Below, piece by piece: positions 25,317 to 63,962 of a stretch of DNA of 64,000 nt. Source of the DNA: an uncultured virus (IMG/VR IMGVR_UViG_3300026493_000141) (Duplodnaviria; Heunggongvirae; Uroviricota; Caudoviricetes); the IMG/VR virus record IMGVR_UViG_3300026493_000141, positions 1 to 64,000 of that record. The stretch is one strand, 5' to 3'. The notes below the pieces were generated by a model, which was not told where the DNA came from, did no database searches, and saw nothing but the letters and a program-made list of their open reading frames with translations. Positions within the stretch are counted from its first letter, which is position 1. Each line of letters starts with the position of its first letter. Both the position numbers and the translations under genes were made by a program.

Positions 25317-25336
25317 CTCACCTCTATAATGTATAG
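25317..25336 (-). promoter_or_regulatory. early-type promoter
   Basis: CTATACATTAT AGAGG TGAG. Confidence 0.75.
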
Positions 25337-25355
25337 TTATAATTTCTTTTAATTT

Positions 25356-31766: not shown

Positions 31767-31785
31767 CTCACCTATATAATGTATA
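31767..31785 (-). promoter_or_regulatory. early-type promoter (ligase operon)
   Basis: TATACATTAT ATAGG TGAG. Confidence 0.75.
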
Positions 31786-31863
31786 ATCAAATTAAATGTT
31801 GAATTTATTGTTATTGTATAAAAATGACAAAAAATAAAGATAGGGATTTCTCCCTATCTCGTA

Positions 31864-55385: not shown

Positions 55386-56501
55386 TTAATAATTTCCTAA
55401 GATAGAATCTGCATCTGTCTCAGGTTCTTCATTTAAATCTTTGATTGTTGTATCATCTTCCTCGCTATTTAACCAGTCTAAAGAACCTGCGATTTCACCC
55501 AGGTTATCCTTGCGGCTACGAGTTAAGTTTTCTTTCATGCTGTTTAACTTCTCTGCTATGTCCTCTATGCGTGTTGCAGGGTAAGACATTCCAGCCATAA
55601 TTGTTACGATAGAACCTGCTTCAGATTCTCCAATGCAATTGATATGTTCGAAGATTTCATATGGCTCACCATATACTTCTTTCATCTTCGTGTAATAGCT
55701 ATCAATTGTCTTTAATAATGATTCAGGCAATGTATGGATTACACCGACACGTTTGATTGCACGATCACGTTCGATATCCACATTGTTACTTCCTTTGATT
55801 GATGTAATCATTAATTCGTTTACATCTCTATCATTTAAATAGTTCTCTTTAATACCAGAGACTTTACTTACTGTGATAAGTCCTTTCGAACCAATTAATT
55901 TCAATCTGTCACGGTCATCCATTACACCGTAAGCAGTTGTTTCACATAAGTCACCTCTGAATACTTTCAGATCATTTACAAAAGCATTGTTGATTGTTTT
56001 GAATACTTCTGTAATTGGACCTTTCACTGTTTCGTTATCATACATTAGATAACCTAAGTCCAAGTTCTTAATCTCAGCCATACACTCAATTGTATTCTTT
56101 TGAGCTACTGGAGATTCTTTTACACTTGGAATGATTAATGCGTTTAAGTATACAGGACCTTTTACAAGGGAACGTAGTAAATCCGTCATAATCGGAATCA
56201 TCCCTGAGCCTGTACCTCCACCTGTAGAACCCGCTACAACGATTACGTTGCACTCGCCTAGAAGTGTTTGTATATCACCAATGATTGGTTTATATTTTTG
56301 TTTCACAAATGCTTTGGCACGATTGCGGTCTTTCCCACATCCGTCTTCCCCAATAAGCATCTTTTCAACTGATTCGTTCATTGTCATTAAGTCAGCCTCA
56401 GTACTATTAATTGCAATTACATCGAAGCCTGCTTCTGATGCTAAGTTTGCTAACTGATTCCCTGCTGATCCAATACCGATTACTCCAATTTTAAGTGTCA
56501 T
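55386..56501 (-). CDS. tubZ: tubulin/FtsZ-family GTPase (TubZ/PhuZ-like)
   Basis: VIGIGSAGNQ, INST..DL, GCGKD, signature GGGTGSG, YDN, T7-like MDDRD; acidic C-tail. Confidence 0.9.
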   Translation of the reverse strand: MTLKIGVIGIGSAGNQLANLASEAGFDVIAINSTEADLMTMNESVEKMLIGEDGCGKDRNRAKAFVKQKYKPIIGDIQTLLGECNVIVVAGSTGGGTGSGMIPIMTDLLRSLVKGPVYLNALIIPSVKESPVAQKNTIECMAEIKNLDLGYLMYDNETVKGPITEVFKTINNAFVNDLKVFRGDLCETTAYGVMDDRDRLKLIGSKGLITVSKVSGIKENYLNDRDVNELMITSIKGSNNVDIERDRAIKRVGVIHTLPESLLKTIDSYYTKMKEVYGEPYEIFEHINCIGESEAGSIVTIMAGMSYPATRIEDIAEKLNSMKENLTRSRKDNLGEIAGSLDWLNSEEDDTTIKDLNEEPETDADSILGNY

Positions 56502-56622: not shown

Positions 56623-56642
56623 CTCACCTATATAATGTATAG
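56623..56642 (-). promoter_or_regulatory. early-type promoter (tubulin)
   Basis: CTATACATTAT ATAGG TGAG. Confidence 0.75.
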
Positions 56643-56661
56643 TTAAATTATAGGTTAAATT

Positions 56662-58321: not shown

Positions 58322-58951
58322 TTAAAATAAGTATTCAGCCGTATTAATATATAACATTTCACCTTCGGTCAATGTCTTATGGTAGAACGGCATGATTGGA
58401 TGGAAATTATCTTTGGGTCTTGGCATTAATAATACACTCTCATATTTCTTTAAGAATGATTTACTCGTAATATCCAATACTGTTGGATCAATAAGCGCTG
58501 GTAGTACAAGTGGGATATTATGCTTCATTGCCATCTCATGCAGACGGTCAAGAGCATCCTCACTTGTTTGCATACCCCAGTTGTTACCGTGTGTCAAACT
58601 CATAAAAGCATTTGCTACTCCTGCACGATAATTTGTTACACCAGGTTCTTCAGACTGACTGATAAAATCAGACTTAACTGAAGCGAATGGATTGTAGGAT
58701 TCCATAAAACGATCATACATGAATCGATTCTCTTGTCCTAATTTATTTAAACGATCTTCCCAATTATGGTACATAGGACCTACTACAGTAAACGGTTTAT
58801 CGTCAGGTGTAACATGCATGTTTAGGAATTGTGCTGCCACATTTATCATAAATTTTTCTACATTTTCTTTGTTTGTAGTATGAGCCACTATTACATGTAA
58901 CCCAGGTGTATCAAAGAATATTTTTGGATAGTTCGTTAATGTGATTTGCAT
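58322..58951 (-). CDS. degenerate DnaB/RecA-fold-like protein (family C)
   Basis: PGLHVIVAH, LHEMAMKHNIPLVL. Confidence 0.55.
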   Translation of the reverse strand: MQITLTNYPKIFFDTPGLHVIVAHTTNKENVEKFMINVAAQFLNMHVTPDDKPFTVVGPMYHNWEDRLNKLGQENRFMYDRFMESYNPFASVKSDFISQSEEPGVTNYRAGVANAFMSLTHGNNWGMQTSEDALDRLHEMAMKHNIPLVLPALIDPTVLDITSKSFLKKYESVLLMPRPKDNFHPIMPFYHKTLTEGEMLYINTAEYLF

Positions 58952-59674: not shown

Positions 59675-59694
59675 CTCACCTATATAATATATAG
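59675..59694 (-). promoter_or_regulatory. early-type promoter (family C operon)
   Basis: CTATATATTAT ATAGG TGAG. Confidence 0.75.
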
Positions 59695-59713
59695 TCGTAT
59701 ACTTTTTCAATTA

Positions 59714-59944
59714 TTATCGAGACACCCATGGTAGTGGGCTACTGCTTCGAACTTCAAATTCGTTAGGATATACTGCAACATGTGCAAGCTGTCCTTTATG
59801 GGTAACCCAAGCTTCATAATAAGCTTCTCCTGTTTCGGATTTCTTCTTCGGTACATATTTAGAGATATAACCTCCAGCACCTTCATACTCTCCTTCTGTT
59901 ATAGTTACCACATGTGCTAATAAGTCTTTTCCTGTTTTTGTCAT
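59714..59944 (-). CDS. small KOW/SH3-like beta-barrel protein
   Basis: VTITEGEYEGAGGYI KOW-like pattern; SD GGAGG. Confidence 0.55.
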   Translation of the reverse strand: MTKTGKDLLAHVVTITEGEYEGAGGYISKYVPKKKSETGEAYYEAWVTHKGQLAHVAVYPNEFEVRSSSPLPWVSR

Positions 59945-59956
59945 TTTATTATCCTC

Positions 59957-60136
59957 CTAGTAATTTACTATTAACGAAGTAATCCCTTTTATAAATAAGA
60001 TCGTTAATAGTAGCGTAACGATTAGTGACGCTAATTCTAATTTATTTTTATTCCGTACTGTCCATATAAAATAACAATTCAGCCCGAATGCAAATATGGA
60101 TAGTATTTCCAATATAATGTACACAATTATTTTCAT
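59957..60136 (-). CDS. 59-aa two-TM membrane protein (not in the ORF track)
   Basis: SD GAGGAGGT; MKIIVYIILEILSIFAFGLNCYFIWTVRNKNKLELASLIVTLLLTILFIKGITSLIVNY. Confidence 0.65.
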   Translation of the reverse strand: MKIIVYIILEILSIFAFGLNCYFIWTVRNKNKLELASLIVTLLLTILFIKGITSLIVNY

Positions 60137-60137
60137 T

Positions 60138-60326
60138 TTAATTACCTCCTCTTATAAGTATCATCCATGATACTTGAAGAAAGATTAAACTAAGGACAGG
60201 AAAGACAATTAATAATATAGGTAATATAAATCGATTAAAGACATGCTTACCTGTCACTTCAAGATAAAGCGCGTACAGTGTACAAACCATTAATATTATA
60301 GCTGCAATAAATAAATCTTTTGCCAT
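60138..60326 (-). CDS. 62-aa two-TM membrane protein
   Basis: Two hydrophobic stretches; SD GAGGAGG. Confidence 0.7.
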   Translation of the reverse strand: MAKDLFIAAIILMVCTLYALYLEVTGKHVFNRFILPILLIVFPVLSLIFLQVSWMILIRGGN

Positions 60327-60368
60327 GTGAATTCCTCCTCAAAATAAAAAGATGTAGAGCAATAAGCT

Positions 60369-60548
60369 CTACATCATAAATACTGCAACGAATAAGCCAC
60401 AAAGTAGTAAGAATAGTGTAGCTAACGCTATTATAGCAAATGCTACCTTAAATCCACCCATACCTATATCGTGCATAATTTTAATTATCCATACTTCAAA
60501 TAAGAATGCTATAAATAATAATAGCAATAGAAATCCTTTGAGTGTCAT
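60369..60548 (-). CDS. 59-aa two-TM membrane protein (not in the ORF track)
   Basis: Start overlaps the upstream stop (TAATG); MTLKGFLLLLLFIAFLFEVW...GLFVAVFMM. Confidence 0.6.
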   Translation of the reverse strand: MTLKGFLLLLLFIAFLFEVWIIKIMHDIGMGGFKVAFAIIALATLFLLLCGLFVAVFMM

Positions 60549-60733
60549 TATATATTAAGCCCCCATAATACAATATGCACAATATCTTGCATCACTAATA
60601 ATACAAGATATGTAATTGATACCCATTTCCCAGCTCGTTCAAACTTATTCAGTTTGCCGATCCAATAGATTCCCGCTGCTGTACCGACTCCACATATATG
60701 GAATACGATACATGAAATTATAGCGTCAACCAT
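60548..60733 (-). CDS. 61-aa two-TM membrane protein
   Basis: Two hydrophobic stretches, coupled to neighbours. Confidence 0.6.
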   Translation of the reverse strand: MVDAIISCIVFHICGVGTAAGIYWIGKLNKFERAGKWVSITYLVLLVMQDIVHIVLWGLNI

Positions 60734-61140
60734 GCGATTGGGTGGGCTAATATTAATGAGATTAAGAAGATTCTAACGAGATGTATAGACTGGTCTACTT
60801 CAATCATTACGAAGAATGGTAAATCTTCGATTTTGAAGTTTTTATTTCTAGCTATATGTTTCTCGATTAACATCTTCCACCAGATAACTGGTTTACGTGT
60901 ATCAATAAATAGATGCTCAGCTAATGTTAGGAATAATACGACTAAGGCATATTTCCAGTTAAACATTGCTAGAACTAGTAACGCAATAGTTATTGAGTAT
61001 ACTAGACAATGACGAATTAGCGCGTCCTCATCTGTTGTTTTCTTTAATGCTTGCGTATTTGTTTGTAATAGATAGTCACCTATCCGATGTCCCACGAATT
61101 GAGTAATAAACAATGTGCAAAATACTACATGACTAATCAT
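60718..61140 (-). CDS. DUF3307-like membrane protein
   Basis: H.IGDYLLQ, RHCLVY, HLFID, DQSIH motifs. Confidence 0.75.
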   Translation of the reverse strand: MISHVVFCTLFITQFVGHRIGDYLLQTNTQALKKTTDEDALIRHCLVYSITIALLVLAMFNWKYALVVLFLTLAEHLFIDTRKPVIWWKMLIEKHIARNKNFKIEDLPFFVMIEVDQSIHLVRIFLISLILAHPIAWLTL

Positions 61141-62245
61141 CGTACTTCACCGTCATATCTTCGACATATCGTGCAATTACTTTCTCAATTACATGGTCTG
61201 GGACACCTTTTTCTTTCATATGTTTTACAGAATTAATTAAGCTATGACTTGGACGTTGCATAAAGATTTCTTTCATAATAGAATATAAATCTCCACACAT
61301 AGCTGGAATTTGTTCTAAAATATATTTCTCATCCATGTCCATTTCCAATGGGTTAAATGTAATGTAAATCATTTGACTTGGATATTTTTCTAACTCTTTC
61401 TGTAACTGATGGATTGTCATATCGTACATCGACTCATCGAATTTCAATGAACCCATAATCAGTCTTTGAGCTGCTACATCACGTCTATCATTATCAAAGC
61501 CGATAGAGGATGTTAATACAACTTGACGAGTACTCTTATGATGACAATCTGTTAAATATATATCAAGAATAAGATCATTGTAAGCTAAGTATGTAAAGTG
61601 ATCAATCCATTTGATGTTACTTTCATTTCTCTCAGCTTCTACTCGGATTGCACCAGGTGATACATGCTCACTATCCAAATAATCAACATATACTGTATTC
61701 CCTTTTTCTACAAGTGTAGCTTGTGTTGGATTATGTGAAGTCATATAGCCTGCTATATCAATAAAATAGTTAGGAAGAATATTATATAATTTTTGCATAC
61801 GATTAATATTATGCATAGCATTATTAGGGCTATCCGATACACAACTAGTTATAAACTTAGTTTCACAAATATTTTTCCATGTTACAAATACTGCGGTATT
61901 CATTGTATTTCCTAATTGTCTAGGCAATTCACTATATACATTAAATCCATGTTGCATAATCGACCATAACGCAATATTTCCTCTATGAGCTGTTACCGGT
62001 CGAGTAACACCTTTTTCAAATGTAGGAATACGTGCAACTTCACGTGCAAAGTACCAGAAGTTTCGTTCCACTTCATTTATAATTTTATTCTGCATAACTT
62101 CATCGAGGGTTGGATTAAATGGGTCCACATGGACTAAATCCTTGTCATTTAATTGTAGAATAAATTCTACATTATGTCCTCGTTTCTTCATTTTCTCTAC
62201 TAAATCTGTAAATGATTTATTTGAAGTTTCATAATCGTAATACAT
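61133..62245 (-). CDS. terminase large subunit ATPase-domain paralog, apparently inactive and lacking the nuclease domain
   Basis: TSNKSF, VDPFNP, NFWYFAREVARIP, HRGNIA, PRQLGNT (GK->GN), WIDH (DE->DH); only 370 aa. Confidence 0.7.
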   Translation of the reverse strand: MYYDYETSNKSFTDLVEKMKKRGHNVEFILQLNDKDLVHVDPFNPTLDEVMQNKIINEVERNFWYFAREVARIPTFEKGVTRPVTAHRGNIALWSIMQHGFNVYSELPRQLGNTMNTAVFVTWKNICETKFITSCVSDSPNNAMHNINRMQKLYNILPNYFIDIAGYMTSHNPTQATLVEKGNTVYVDYLDSEHVSPGAIRVEAERNESNIKWIDHFTYLAYNDLILDIYLTDCHHKSTRQVVLTSSIGFDNDRRDVAAQRLIMGSLKFDESMYDMTIHQLQKELEKYPSQMIYITFNPLEMDMDEKYILEQIPAMCGDLYSIMKEIFMQRPSHSLINSVKHMKEKGVPDHVIEKVIARYVEDMTVKYDD

Positions 62246-62291
62246 CGTTTCTCCTCCTCATGATAAAAAAATAAAGAGTAAGGCATAAGCC

Positions 62292-62432
62292 CTACTCTTT
62301 ATCTTTCAGTAATCCTTGTTTACGTAGCTTTTCTTTTTCTTCATCAGTAAGTTCTGCTACTTTGTTTGGGTCGATACCGACCTCACCCCATGCTACTTCA
62401 GTTAGCATTTGCCATTCTCCTTGTTCAGGCAT
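62292..62432 (-). CDS. 46-aa late peptide (not in the ORF track)
   Basis: Late promoter 62464-62475, SD AAAGGAGG, own terminator; MPEQGEWQMLTEVAWGEVGIDPNKVAELTDEEKEKLRKQGLLKDKE. Confidence 0.65.
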   Translation of the reverse strand: MPEQGEWQMLTEVAWGEVGIDPNKVAELTDEEKEKLRKQGLLKDKE

Positions 62433-62488
62433 GTGTTTCTCCTCCTTTCTCTTTATGGTTAGCTATTAAGATGTTACTGCAATAGTAT

Positions 62489-63250
62489 TTATTTATTGTA
62501 CTTCGCAGATATAGAACTTACATCTTTATTTAGATTATTCAATGTGCGAGGTAATGCTAAACCATCTGTAACAAGGTTTGTTTTTAATCCTGCACATGTA
62601 AAGAATACATCTAAAGTATTTAATGCTACCTTATCCGTTTTATTAGAAGGGATATCCTCAAGACTCACATACCCGTCATCTTTAATACGTTTCAACATTT
62701 CTGTTTTTGCACGAAGGTCGTCGGAACGTGCTCCGATTAATTCCTTCATAGAATCTTTTGCCCCTACCGCAATAAGAGCGATATTCTCAACGTCAGATGC
62801 ACGAGCATTCTTATCGTCACCACTAACCATACCAGTCTTCGGATTACGTTGACCAATATGAATAGACATACTATTCTTTTTCGATACCATTTGCTGTACA
62901 CGTTTAATATGAATGTATCCTGTTAGTACCGGTTGCTGTGTAACAACTGGGTCACCTTCGGGATTAGCAAATGGCATGATAACATGTTCGAATAAAGGCA
63001 CTTTTAAGAAGTCTGCCGCTTTCTGCGCTTCCTTCATCGATACCTCTACAGCGTATGGTTCAATCTCCAGATAGAAGTAAGCATCTGGATTATTTAAGAA
63101 CTTCTTCATCTCTTTATCAAATTGCTCATTAGACATTTTAGAATAACGTTCTTTATACTTCTGCGTATTCTTTCCTGTCTTGTCTAATATATTAAAAGTC
63201 CCGTAAATCAAGTCTTCCATTTTCTTACGTTTTGCTGGCGTCATTGCCAT
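62489..63250 (-). CDS. RNA polymerase beta subunit C-terminal fragment (probably virion RNAP)
   Basis: GYIHIKRVQQMVSKK, RNPKTG, RASDVENIAL, ELIGARSDD correspond to the RpoB C-terminal region; second copy of this region in the window; GACA late-variant promoter at 63273-63284. Confidence 0.75.
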   Translation of the reverse strand: MAMTPAKRKKMEDLIYGTFNILDKTGKNTQKYKERYSKMSNEQFDKEMKKFLNNPDAYFYLEIEPYAVEVSMKEAQKAADFLKVPLFEHVIMPFANPEGDPVVTQQPVLTGYIHIKRVQQMVSKKNSMSIHIGQRNPKTGMVSGDDKNARASDVENIALIAVGAKDSMKELIGARSDDLRAKTEMLKRIKDDGYVSLEDIPSNKTDKVALNTLDVFFTCAGLKTNLVTDGLALPRTLNNLNKDVSSISAKYNK

Positions 63251-63290
63251 AAATATTCCTCCTTTAGTCTATTATAGTAATGTCGGAATT

Positions 63291-63962
63291 CTATTTCTTA
63301 ACCATGTGTATAGAAAATTTATCAGTTTGATTCTTAATCATATCTAAGGTTTTTATCGTTTGACCATTTACGGTCACATTACCATTAAGATGTTTTACAG
63401 GCTTACCTTTTGATTTGAATGTCTCTATTGAAGTGTTATCAACATCTTGTGAAACCATTTCTAATCCACTATCAGTTACCGCATATAATTTACCATCCAT
63501 ACCAAGTAACTGATACTCGTTTATACTTAAATAAAATTGCATATTCCGTAGGAATACATATGAATCACCTTTTGCAGACTTTAGATTCATGAATAAATAA
63601 TTTGTTTCTATTATTTGTCCTAAATCATATAATCTTGGAGATTCATTTGCTACTGCACTATGTGACCATGTCCCATATGATGTAAACCCATTTGTTAATG
63701 TGAAATTCGGCGCATGATATTCGCTTGTAGCAGGTTCTATCATAATGTGATCGAATTTCATCTTAAATGGTGCCCGTACTTCAACTGTTGCAGAGGTTGA
63801 AGTTATATGATGGAAATATGAACTAGAATCATTTTTAAACATATTTGCTGCAACATAATTCTCATAATGTCCATTGTCAGTTATAGTAAACCCTTGCATA
63901 TCATTTAATAAATTTGGCACCTGAGGTGTCATAGTAAATCTATCGTTACTGTTAATCTCCAT
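63291..63962 (-). CDS. hypothetical protein, possible discoidin/F5-8-like carbohydrate-binding virion domain
   Basis: beta-rich; IETNYLFMNL...VFLRNMQFY resembles the end of a discoidin domain; SD GGAGG. Confidence 0.5.
   Translation of the reverse strand: MEINSNDRFTMTPQVPNLLNDMQGFTITDNGHYENYVAANMFKNDSSSYFHHITSTSATVEVRAPFKMKFDHIMIEPATSEYHAPNFTLTNGFTSYGTWSHSAVANESPRLYDLGQIIETNYLFMNLKSAKGDSYVFLRNMQFYLSINEYQLLGMDGKLYAVTDSGLEMVSQDVDNTSIETFKSKGKPVKHLNGNVTVNGQTIKTLDMIKNQTDKFSIHMVKK

What the first reader, a model, noticed from the sequence alone, without database searches (positions are those of the whole stretch)
61133..62245. Catalytically dead, nuclease-less terminase paralog: possible decoy
The N-terminus follows phiKZ-like TerL (TSNKSF, VDP, N.WYF.REV.RIP, RGNIA, PRQ.G). 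However, the Walker A Lys is Asn (PRQLGNT), the Walker B catalytic Glu appears as His (WIDH), and the protein stops at 370 aa without an RNase H-like nuclease domain. The ORF is intact, has a strong SD and lies among accessory genes rather than packaging genes. Established: Avs/AVAST STAND sensors recognise the terminase fold. Inference: a decoy that titrates terminase-sensing immunity, or a regulator of the phage's own packaging motor.
Basis: partly seen in the sequence, partly recalled or inferred. Interest (0 to 1): 0.75.

Follow-up and report, generated by a model that had tools for sequence, protein, structure and literature searches.

The report
Dead terminase-ATPase copy in jumbo phage
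This soil jumbo phage carries, besides its normal DNA-packaging enzyme, an intact and fast-changing second gene that copies only the enzyme's ATP-using half with two key catalytic residues replaced; similar half-copies appear to have arisen several times in related phages, and it likely works by binding something, possibly as an untested decoy for bacterial sensors of the packaging enzyme.

Summary
Confirmed. window 61133-62245 (minus strand) encodes a 370-aa protein predicted to have a complete terminase (TerL) ATPase fold (AlphaFold pLDDT 93), with Walker A Lys replaced by Asn, Walker B Glu by His, and no nuclease domain. An intact 751-aa TerL lies elsewhere in a 223-kb record identical to this contig where compared, so this is not a split gene. 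Five orthologues keep the Asn and lack the Glu, so it is not a read error. Short nuclease-less copies recur in this phage group (8 of 37 records; 25 of 29 short homologues lack a catalytic residue), and one origin is rejected (AU p=0.00014). A binding-only protein in phage-host conflict is the best reading. The decoy idea is untested and has counter-evidence: isolated TerL ATPase domains, and T4 vs.8, activate Avs2, and predicted expression here is late and low. This scan noted similar dead copies in at least 13 other genomes (unchecked AI notes). I found no paper describing dead copies.

The parts
61133..62245 (-). 370-aa nuclease-less TerL ATPase-domain paralogue (P0001)
62021..62245 (-). 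N-terminal subdomain (aa 1-75), the best-kept part: 21 of 23 TerL-conserved positions retained
61904..61924 (-). Degenerate Walker A, PRQLGNT (aa 108-114); Asn113 codon at 61907-61909 replaces the Lys
61598..61609 (-). Degenerate Walker B, WIDH (aa 213-216); His216 replaces the catalytic Glu, Asp215 kept
61253..61273 (-). KEIFMQR (aa 325-331), the counterpart of the TerL motif that ends the ATPase lid; most short copies stop just after it
61136..61252 (-). Two-helix C-terminal tail (aa 332-370) in place of the nuclease; a similar tail is present in P0013 and the P0017 cluster; no family assigned
62251..62259 (-). Ribosome-binding site GAGGAGGAG
   Evidence: sequence
62262..62305 (-). 17-bp hairpin followed by a U tract directly before the ribosome site; likely intrinsic terminator
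   Evidence: -22.6 kcal/mol, z -6.06, 0 of 200 shuffles as low
62292..62432 (-). 46-aa ORF of unknown function upstream of the paralogue
   Evidence: no Pfam hit
62463..62475 (-). AR9-type late promoter motif AACA-6N-TA, 43 nt before the 46-aa ORF; predicted, not mapped
   Evidence: consensus from PMC5312081
60718..61140 (-). DUF3307 membrane-protein gene whose start overlaps the paralogue's stop by 8 nt (likely translational coupling)

Best explanation
The gene is an intact second copy of only the ATPase half of this phage group's large terminase, with the ATP-binding lysine and the catalytic glutamate replaced, and it likely acts as a binding-only protein in phage-host conflict, most likely as a look-alike that would occupy a host terminase sensor without switching it on. 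Shown: homology, domain boundary, motif loss, a separate full TerL, retention in relatives, fast divergence. Predicted: fold, loss of ATP hydrolysis, late low-level expression. Inferred and untested: that the partner is a host sensor, and that binding does not activate it. The logic is that Avs3 needs both terminase domains, and Avs2 and Avs3 contact the terminase-bound ATP, so a copy without nuclease and with a damaged ATP site keeps the recognised shape but lacks parts of the trigger.
For: Fold retained: AF2 pLDDT 92.7, pTM 0.91 (the alignment is mostly TerL, which pulls the model toward that fold); top PDB match T4 gp17 ATPase domain, E 4e-11. Divergence against a fixed parent, genomes paired by equal contig length: TerL ATPase 100% vs copy 59.9%; 95.8% vs 58.5%; 76.3% vs 25.6%. 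The adjacent DUF3307 gene is 86% identical where the copy is 58.5%. Recurrence: among 149 profile hits, 102 of 104 long proteins keep Lys, Asp and Glu against 4 of 29 short ones. A second short copy sits beside an intact TerL in 8 of 37 records and 1 of 25 fragments. One clade of 13 short copies is rejected, p-AU 0.00014. Selection in a syntenic pair of another lineage (G023/G053): dN/dS 0.63, CI 0.46-0.84, against 0.19 for TerL. Net acidic (39 K+R, 51 D+E) where the TerL ATPase part is basic (52, 43). Sensor logic: PMC13601566 and 10.64898/2026.08.25.746987.
Against: An isolated TerL ATPase domain strongly activates EcAvs2 (5 of 5 tested) and Upx; catalytic double mutants mostly still activate Upx; T4 vs.8, a stand-alone TerL-ATPase homologue, is toxic with EcAvs2 (PMC13601566). 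A half-terminase can therefore be a trigger. No early promoter motif lies upstream (best score 3.2 or less against 27 or more for the 9 training sites), and a likely terminator precedes the gene, which is a poor design for a sponge needed in excess. None of 46 neighbouring or related proteins scanned hit a known anti-defence Pfam family (4 had any hit). Outside the N-terminal subdomain, dN/dS in G023/G053 is 0.75 with CI reaching 1.05, the upstream neighbour is as relaxed (0.68), and the G023 copy has an in-frame stop, so relaxed constraint explains part of the speed. Two of the 8 distinct second copies read by eye (G017, G013) keep Lys and Asp-Glu. No dN/dS could be computed for this gene itself.
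Confidence: 0.38

Rival explanations
1. Partner of the phage's own packaging machinery: it would bind TerL, portal or small terminase through the conserved N-terminal subdomain, and so pace packaging or hide free TerL monomers.
For: Predicted late expression, as for the TerL region. The N-terminal subdomain is kept as well in short copies as in full TerLs (0.90 vs 0.92 at 23 positions; partly a selection effect of the profile search). Copies lie directly upstream of TerL in G023, G028 and G053. Dead subunits are tolerated by, and slow, the T4 motor (PMC8589836 abstract). The best full-TerL hit is the genome's own in 5 of 8 cases.
Against: The copy differs by 40% between phages whose TerL ATPase domains are identical (pairing inferred). 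It is missing from 29 of 37 records and from BpSp and phiKZ, so it is no core motor part. In T4 the portal contact is assigned to the hinge next to the nuclease (PMC9958956 passage).
Confidence: 0.2
2. Relaxed or slowly decaying duplicate: TerL duplications lose the nuclease and the active site first because active extra copies are harmful or trigger immunity, and the rest persists with little function.
For: dN/dS near 1 outside the N-terminus in G023/G053. In-frame stop in G023; 243-aa and 289-aa eroded copies in G013 and G009. Tandem position beside TerL in three records. Repeated origins need no shared function.
Against: This gene's clade (P0001, P0003, P0013, P0162; support 97) stays open and 353-370 aa long over about 5.5 substitutions per site of path, against 0.3 for the paired TerLs. 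It keeps a strong ribosome site and a confidently modelled fold. Whole-gene dN/dS is below 1 in the pair tested. Most short copies end within a few residues of one domain boundary.
Confidence: 0.17
3. Weapon against co-infecting phages: it would join and poison the packaging motor of related phages.
For: Dead subunits reduce motor velocity and success (PMC8589836 abstract). Allele diversity between near-identical phages fits phage-phage conflict equally well.
Against: It would need to spare its own TerL, which is identical in the ATPase domain to that of the sibling carrying a different allele. No direct evidence.
Confidence: 0.12
4. Repurposed scaffold with an unrelated job, for example binding a nucleotide signal, DNA or a host enzyme through the altered pocket and the new two-helix tail.
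For: Pro-Arg-Gln-x-Gly and the Walker B Asp are invariant in 6 of 6 close sequences, and aa 241-300 are the best-kept stretch among P0001-P0003 (43 of 60), so parts of the pocket remain constrained.
Against: Net acidic charge argues against DNA binding. Substitutions at the Lys differ among lineages (8 residue types), so there is no shared new chemistry. The tail matched no family.
Confidence: 0.1
5. One half of a split or intron-broken active terminase, or a sequencing error.
For: TerL genes in this group can be split: G004 has TerL in three ORFs, and PBS1 and phiR1-37 give two places.
Against: A complete 751-aa TerL with all motifs exists in the same phage. No nuclease-half ORF was found in G000 by inspection of downstream genes. 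The substitutions are shared by orthologues.
Confidence: 0.01

Closest known systems
Large terminase of phiKZ/AR9-related jumbo phages (own TerL P0010; BpSp gp198; phiKZ gp25)
   Same: N-terminal subdomain, ATPase core and lid align at 24-29% identity; same predicted fold.
   Different: No RNase H nuclease; Walker A Lys, Walker B Glu and most core motifs lost (6 of 19 conserved core positions kept); accessory location about 64 kb from TerL in G001; roughly 7-14 times faster divergence where measurable.
T4 vs.8 (Evans et al. 2026, PMC13601566; main text read through the discussion)
   Same: Stand-alone homologue of the phage's own terminase ATPase domain, function unknown, linked to Avs2.
   Different: vs.8 keeps Walker A and B and activates EcAvs2; it belongs to T4-like phages. 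This protein has lost both catalytic residues and its effect on sensors is untested.
Ksap1 and Ksap2 (PMC11564622, passages read)
   Same: Small phage proteins that bind the terminase pocket of Avs2; Ksap2 has weak structural likeness to a terminase ATPase domain.
   Different: They are not sequence paralogues of TerL, and they trigger the sensor.
Viral pseudo-substrate decoys such as poxvirus K3L (recalled, from no call)
   Same: Works-like analogy only: a non-functional look-alike that occupies an immune sensor and evolves fast.
   Different: K3L mimics a host substrate; here the mimic would be of the virus's own recognised protein. No homology.

Membership tests
Large terminase (TerL), functional motor subunit | ASCE P-loop ATPase domain of terminase type | tested here: met
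   PHROG hits; AF2 model and Foldseek to T4 gp17 ATPase domain
Large terminase (TerL), functional motor subunit | Walker A lysine | tested here: not met
   Asn113; Lys in 103 of 104 long homologues
Large terminase (TerL), functional motor subunit | Walker B Asp-Glu with catalytic glutamate | tested here: not met
   Asp-His; Arg in the 5 orthologues; Glu in 102 of 104 long homologues
Large terminase (TerL), functional motor subunit | C-terminal RNase H-like nuclease with catalytic aspartates | tested here: not met
   Protein ends at 370 aa with a two-helix tail
Large terminase (TerL), functional motor subunit | Location in the head/packaging module as the only TerL | tested here: not met
   Full TerL at G001 129241-131496 among structural genes
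T4 vs.8-like stand-alone terminase ATPase | Stand-alone homologue of the TerL ATPase domain beside a full TerL | tested here: met
T4 vs.8-like stand-alone terminase ATPase | [quoted passage not shown] | tested here: not met
   against PMC13601566
T4 vs.8-like stand-alone terminase ATPase | Sequence kinship to vs.8 itself | not tested
   vs.8 was not fetched; the nearest relatives found are phiKZ/AR9-type TerLs
Anti-Avs/Upx decoy (hypothetical class) | Binds a terminase sensor | not testable with these tools
   No sensor from the unknown host was at hand
Anti-Avs/Upx decoy (hypothetical class) | Does not activate the sensor and blocks TerL-triggered killing | not testable with these tools
   Needs co-expression; published ATPase-only constructs activate Avs2 and Upx
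Anti-Avs/Upx decoy (hypothetical class) | Made before, or in excess of, TerL | tested here: inconclusive
   Motifs predict late read-through expression; contig depth cannot rank genes
Anti-Avs/Upx decoy (hypothetical class) | Conflict-like rapid divergence | tested here: inconclusive
   Fast divergence shown; positive selection not shown, dN/dS below 1

The most novel reading that the evidence does not exclude
Jumbo phages of this group have repeatedly (at least three times) turned a duplicate of their own terminase ATPase into a non-activating decoy, removing the parts that Avs sensors need for activation (bound ATP and the nuclease). This would be a counter-defence class built from the recognised viral protein itself, with alleles matched to different host sensors.
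Probability: 0.3. Interest if true: 0.85.

Novelty: new variant of a known kind. Interest (0 to 1): 0.6.

Why it matters
Terminase is one of the main phage proteins that bacterial NLR-like sensors detect, and it is hard to mutate because it is essential. How phages get round such sensors is open; PMC11564622 notes an unexplained failure of KpAvs2 to sense terminase during infection. A natural panel of half-terminases that arose independently, with varied active-site losses, gives ready reagents for asking which features turn binding into activation. If the copies instead regulate packaging, they would be an accessory subunit of the jumbo-phage motor. Practically, these genes score as 'terminase large subunit' in PHROG scans and can mislead TerL-based phylogenies.

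Tried and rejected
No other TerL in G000: the contig ends 2.8 kb short of it, so this absence is an assembly limit. First AlphaFold run on 6 sequences failed (pLDDT 35) and was not used. PDB sequence search gave nothing below E 0.05. No DNA for orthologues was found: viral contigs gave only the identical phage and four distant (25-31%) loci, metagenome contigs only the identical phage, the P0017-type scan nothing, genome contigs nothing, and cultured phages nothing at 60% or above; so no dN/dS for this gene. Sigma-70 promoter scan was at chance (23 vs 20.8 +/- 4.3). Contig depth in RNA runs cannot show expression level. Gene conversion from TerL at the shared 14-residue motif is not supported: 8 of 13 identical codons inside against 38 of 82 outside. 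Origin of this gene from its own TerL lineage is unresolved: best BLAST hit by 137 vs 127 bits, not sister in three trees, not rejected (p-AU 0.46). The careful tree did not finish; all IQ-TREE trees are quick trees. The upstream hairpin is not special: several other promoter-less genes in G000 also follow a hairpin and T tract. The C-terminal tail had no nameable match in the ESM Atlas. No complex prediction with TerL was obtained, so binding to TerL is open. One search covered only fragments (at most 56% complete), so its 1 of 25 is no frequency.

Full report
The observation. Window 61133-62245 on the minus strand is an open 370-codon frame with a strong ribosome site. It matches three PHROG terminase-large-subunit families, the best at E 1.6e-28. 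Aligned to full terminases, Asn113 stands at the Walker A lysine and His216 at the Walker B glutamate, and the protein stops 39 residues after the motif that closes the ATPase lid, with nothing in place of the nuclease but two predicted helices.

The source. The window is the first 64 kb of a 125-kb virus record, G000. Its genes include a tubulin/FtsZ-like protein and an RNA polymerase beta fragment. The closest cultured terminase is that of Bacillus phage BpSp at 38.8%, and named relatives of the adjacent DUF3307 gene are from Brevibacillus and Bacillus, so a soil Bacillota host is inferred. All 24 listed runs holding the region are soil metagenomes.

Not a split gene, not an error. G000 holds no second terminase, but a 223-kb record, G001, matched G000 at 100% in the four fetched stretches that overlap it and carries a 751-aa TerL with intact Walker A, Walker B and nuclease motifs, 2.8 kb beyond the end of G000, among structural genes. 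The two proteins are 28% identical over residues 2-330. Five orthologues of 366-367 aa (58-60% identity) all keep Asn at the lysine position and have Arg at the glutamate position. Eight laid runs list no other letter inside the gene; they may come from one campaign and some cover it only in part.

Fold. With a 143-sequence alignment AlphaFold2 gave pLDDT 92.7 and pTM 0.91; with 6 sequences it failed. The best solved matches are T4 gp17 ATPase-domain structures, E 4e-11, followed by other terminases including the Avs3-bound PhiV-1 terminase; the best viral-library matches have TM 0.82-0.83, and the named ones are large terminases. Because most alignment rows are terminases, the model shows compatibility with the fold, not proof.

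It is one of many. A profile of the six close sequences found 929 proteins at E up to 0.001; the best 150 were listed and 149 aligned, leaving out a 103-aa fragment of the query. They split into 104 long proteins, 29 short ones that end within 60 residues of the lid motif, and 16 others, mostly fragments. Lys, Asp and Glu are all kept in 102 of 104 long and 4 of 29 short proteins (Glu alone: Fisher p 5e-17). The two long exceptions (P0060, P0106) look like dead ATPase domains with another C-terminal part. The 4 intact short ones may be cut-off real terminases. Dropping one misaligned 281-aa row leaves 24 short proteins lacking at least one residue; 22 lack the Glu and 17 the Lys. At positions conserved in full terminases, these 24 keep the N-terminal subdomain (0.90 vs 0.92) but not the core (0.42 vs 0.89); P0001 keeps 21 of 23, 8 of 9 around Walker A, 6 of 19 in the core and 2 of 8 in the lid. 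The profile search favours hits with a good N-terminus, which may inflate that contrast.

Same-genome co-occurrence. G009 and G010 have identical copies. A second batch of 25 fragments added G053. BpSp and phiKZ have one copy. Read by eye, 6 of the 8 distinct copies lack the Walker B Glu; G017 keeps Lys and Asp-Glu but lacks the Arg-Gln before Walker A, and G013 keeps both in an internally shortened 243-aa protein. Three copies lie directly upstream of TerL; G023 has an in-frame stop. These records were picked by similarity to my queries, so 8 of 37 is not an unbiased frequency.

Origins. The genome's own TerL is the best of 110 full terminases for 5 of 8 copies tested, including this one by a narrow 137 to 127 bits. 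In trees of the ATPase domain the short copies need 5 changes, 3 forced by well-supported branches. Holding 13 short copies together is rejected at p-AU 0.00014 on 30 rows; 19 of 49 rows, including the four longest branches, were dropped for that test. This gene groups with P0003, P0013 and P0162 (support 97); descent from its own TerL lineage is neither shown nor rejected (p-AU 0.46). All were quick trees with long branches.

Rate. Pairing proteins to genomes by equal contig length in the look-up tables (an inference, not checked on DNA), the TerL ATPase domains of the 223,016- and 233,918-base contigs are 100% identical while their copies are 59.9% identical; against the 196,841-base contig the figures are 95.8% and 58.5%; against the 230,596-base contig 76.3% and 25.6%. 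The DUF3307 neighbour on the 196,841-base contig is 86% identical. In a syntenic pair from another lineage (G023/G053) the copy has dN/dS 0.63 (CI 0.46-0.84): 0.32 in the N-terminal subdomain and 0.75 (CI to 1.05) elsewhere, against 0.19 for TerL, 0.30 for the downstream gene and 0.68 for the upstream gene (Nei-Gojobori, dS about 0.8). This shows constraint plus relaxation. It does not show positive selection.

Expression context. The genome has an AT-rich motif, TATACATTAT-6N-G, resembling the AR9 early promoter, and the AR9 late motif AACA-6N-T(A/G) (consensus from PMC5312081, passages read). The late motif lies before 22 of 118 start codons against 3-15 for six other spacers, a modest enrichment. 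No early motif lies between the gene and position 65300; the nearest late motifs are at 62437 and 62475, followed by a 46-aa ORF and a strong hairpin with a U tract just before the ribosome site. Late, read-through expression is predicted. Late motifs also precede the two genes upstream of TerL.

Mechanism. The data point to a binding-only protein. For a sensor decoy: SeAvs3 needs both terminase domains, and Avs2 and Avs3 contact the terminase-bound ATP (PMC13601566, parts 1-3 of 7 and passages read; 10.64898/2026.08.25.746987, passages read; Gao et al. 2022 not read, cited through these). The copies have lost those features, and they diverge while TerL stands still. Against it: ATPase domains alone activate EcAvs2 and Upx, catalytic mutants mostly still activate Upx, and T4 vs.8 is toxic with EcAvs2. 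The effect of catalytic mutants on Avs2 is in a figure panel I could not see. Loss of the ATP site could also just stop a copy with some other job from being a trigger. Predicted late, low expression suits a sponge poorly. For a motor partner: dead subunits are tolerated by the T4 motor and slow it (PMC8589836, abstract; PMC9958956, passages), but an unchanging partner should not drive 40% change. My odds: non-activating sensor decoy 0.38, own-motor partner 0.20, relaxed duplicate 0.17, weapon against other phages 0.12, other repurposing 0.10.

What is known. Seven paper searches bore on novelty or mechanism (listings seen). None listed a paper on catalytically dead terminase paralogues, and one search returned no paper. 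The jumbo-phage survey PMC7824862 (passages) mentions none in its four terminase passages. The nearest published cases are vs.8 and Ksap1/2 (PMC11564622, passages). PMC13581612 and PMC7617512 were read in passages for background. The library lacks most subscription papers, and no supplements were read; the vs.8 phylogeny in the supplement of PMC13601566 may include dead forms. This scan's own notes hold 13 findings of dead terminase-ATPase copies in at least 13 other genomes, 8 shown, mostly P1/D6-type phage-plasmids; a search by this sequence found none. Those notes are unchecked and are not used as support. I had reached the reading and found vs.8 before seeing them.

Verdict. Real and recurrent. 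It is not a functional TerL; it is a new variant of the stand-alone terminase-ATPase kind, with function untested but easy to test. Interest 0.6.

Noticed in passing
window 59676-59696, 56624-56644, 31768-31788, 25318-25338 (minus strand) and further sites in G000: Phage promoter code readable from DNA: an AR9-like early motif TATACATTAT-6N-G (9 core sites, all on the minus strand) and the AR9 late motif AACA-6N-T(A/G) before many structural genes.
   Followed up: partly
window 60000-63300: 20 of 24 listed runs holding this DNA are on record as RNA libraries, with contigs spanning intergenic DNA. It could be read-through RNA, DNA carry-over, or a uracil-DNA genome as in AR9; untested.
   Followed up: no
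L193:3689-4155 (G013): Two ORFs of 85 and 70 aa directly upstream of TerL copy only a short piece of the TerL N-terminal subdomain (E 8.5e-10 and 1.8e-5), a minimal version of the part best kept in the dead copies.
   Followed up: no
L194:1082-4431 (G004): TerL is in three ORFs with intervening sequence, likely introns.
   Followed up: no
window 58409-58553: One run (X12) carries a patch of 15 substitutions and two small insertions inside ORF 58322-58951, a diverged allele.
   Followed up: no
window 55386-56501 and 62489-63250: Tubulin/FtsZ-family gene (Pfam E 1.5e-15; PHROG PhuZ E 5.9e-8) and a split RNA polymerase beta-subunit fragment.
   Followed up: no
window 59714-61140: Run of small membrane-protein genes (59-76 aa) and DUF3307 downstream of the paralogue, with no Pfam match for the small ones; candidate accessory or exclusion genes.
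   Followed up: partly
proteins P0060 (580 aa) and P0106 (552 aa): Terminase-like ATPase domains lacking the Walker B Glu inside longer proteins without clear nuclease motifs: possible fusions of the dead domain.
   Followed up: no
G000 88851-92277 (outside the window): A Cys/Gly-rich 480-aa ORF followed by a gene with a CxxxCxxC-type motif; by recall this resembles a radical-SAM peptide-modification cassette.
   Followed up: no
MK308676.1 (hit H56): Vibrio phage vB_VmeM-Yong MS31 gives two places for a short-copy query while one place already covers 95%; it may be a cultured phage with a second copy.
   Followed up: no
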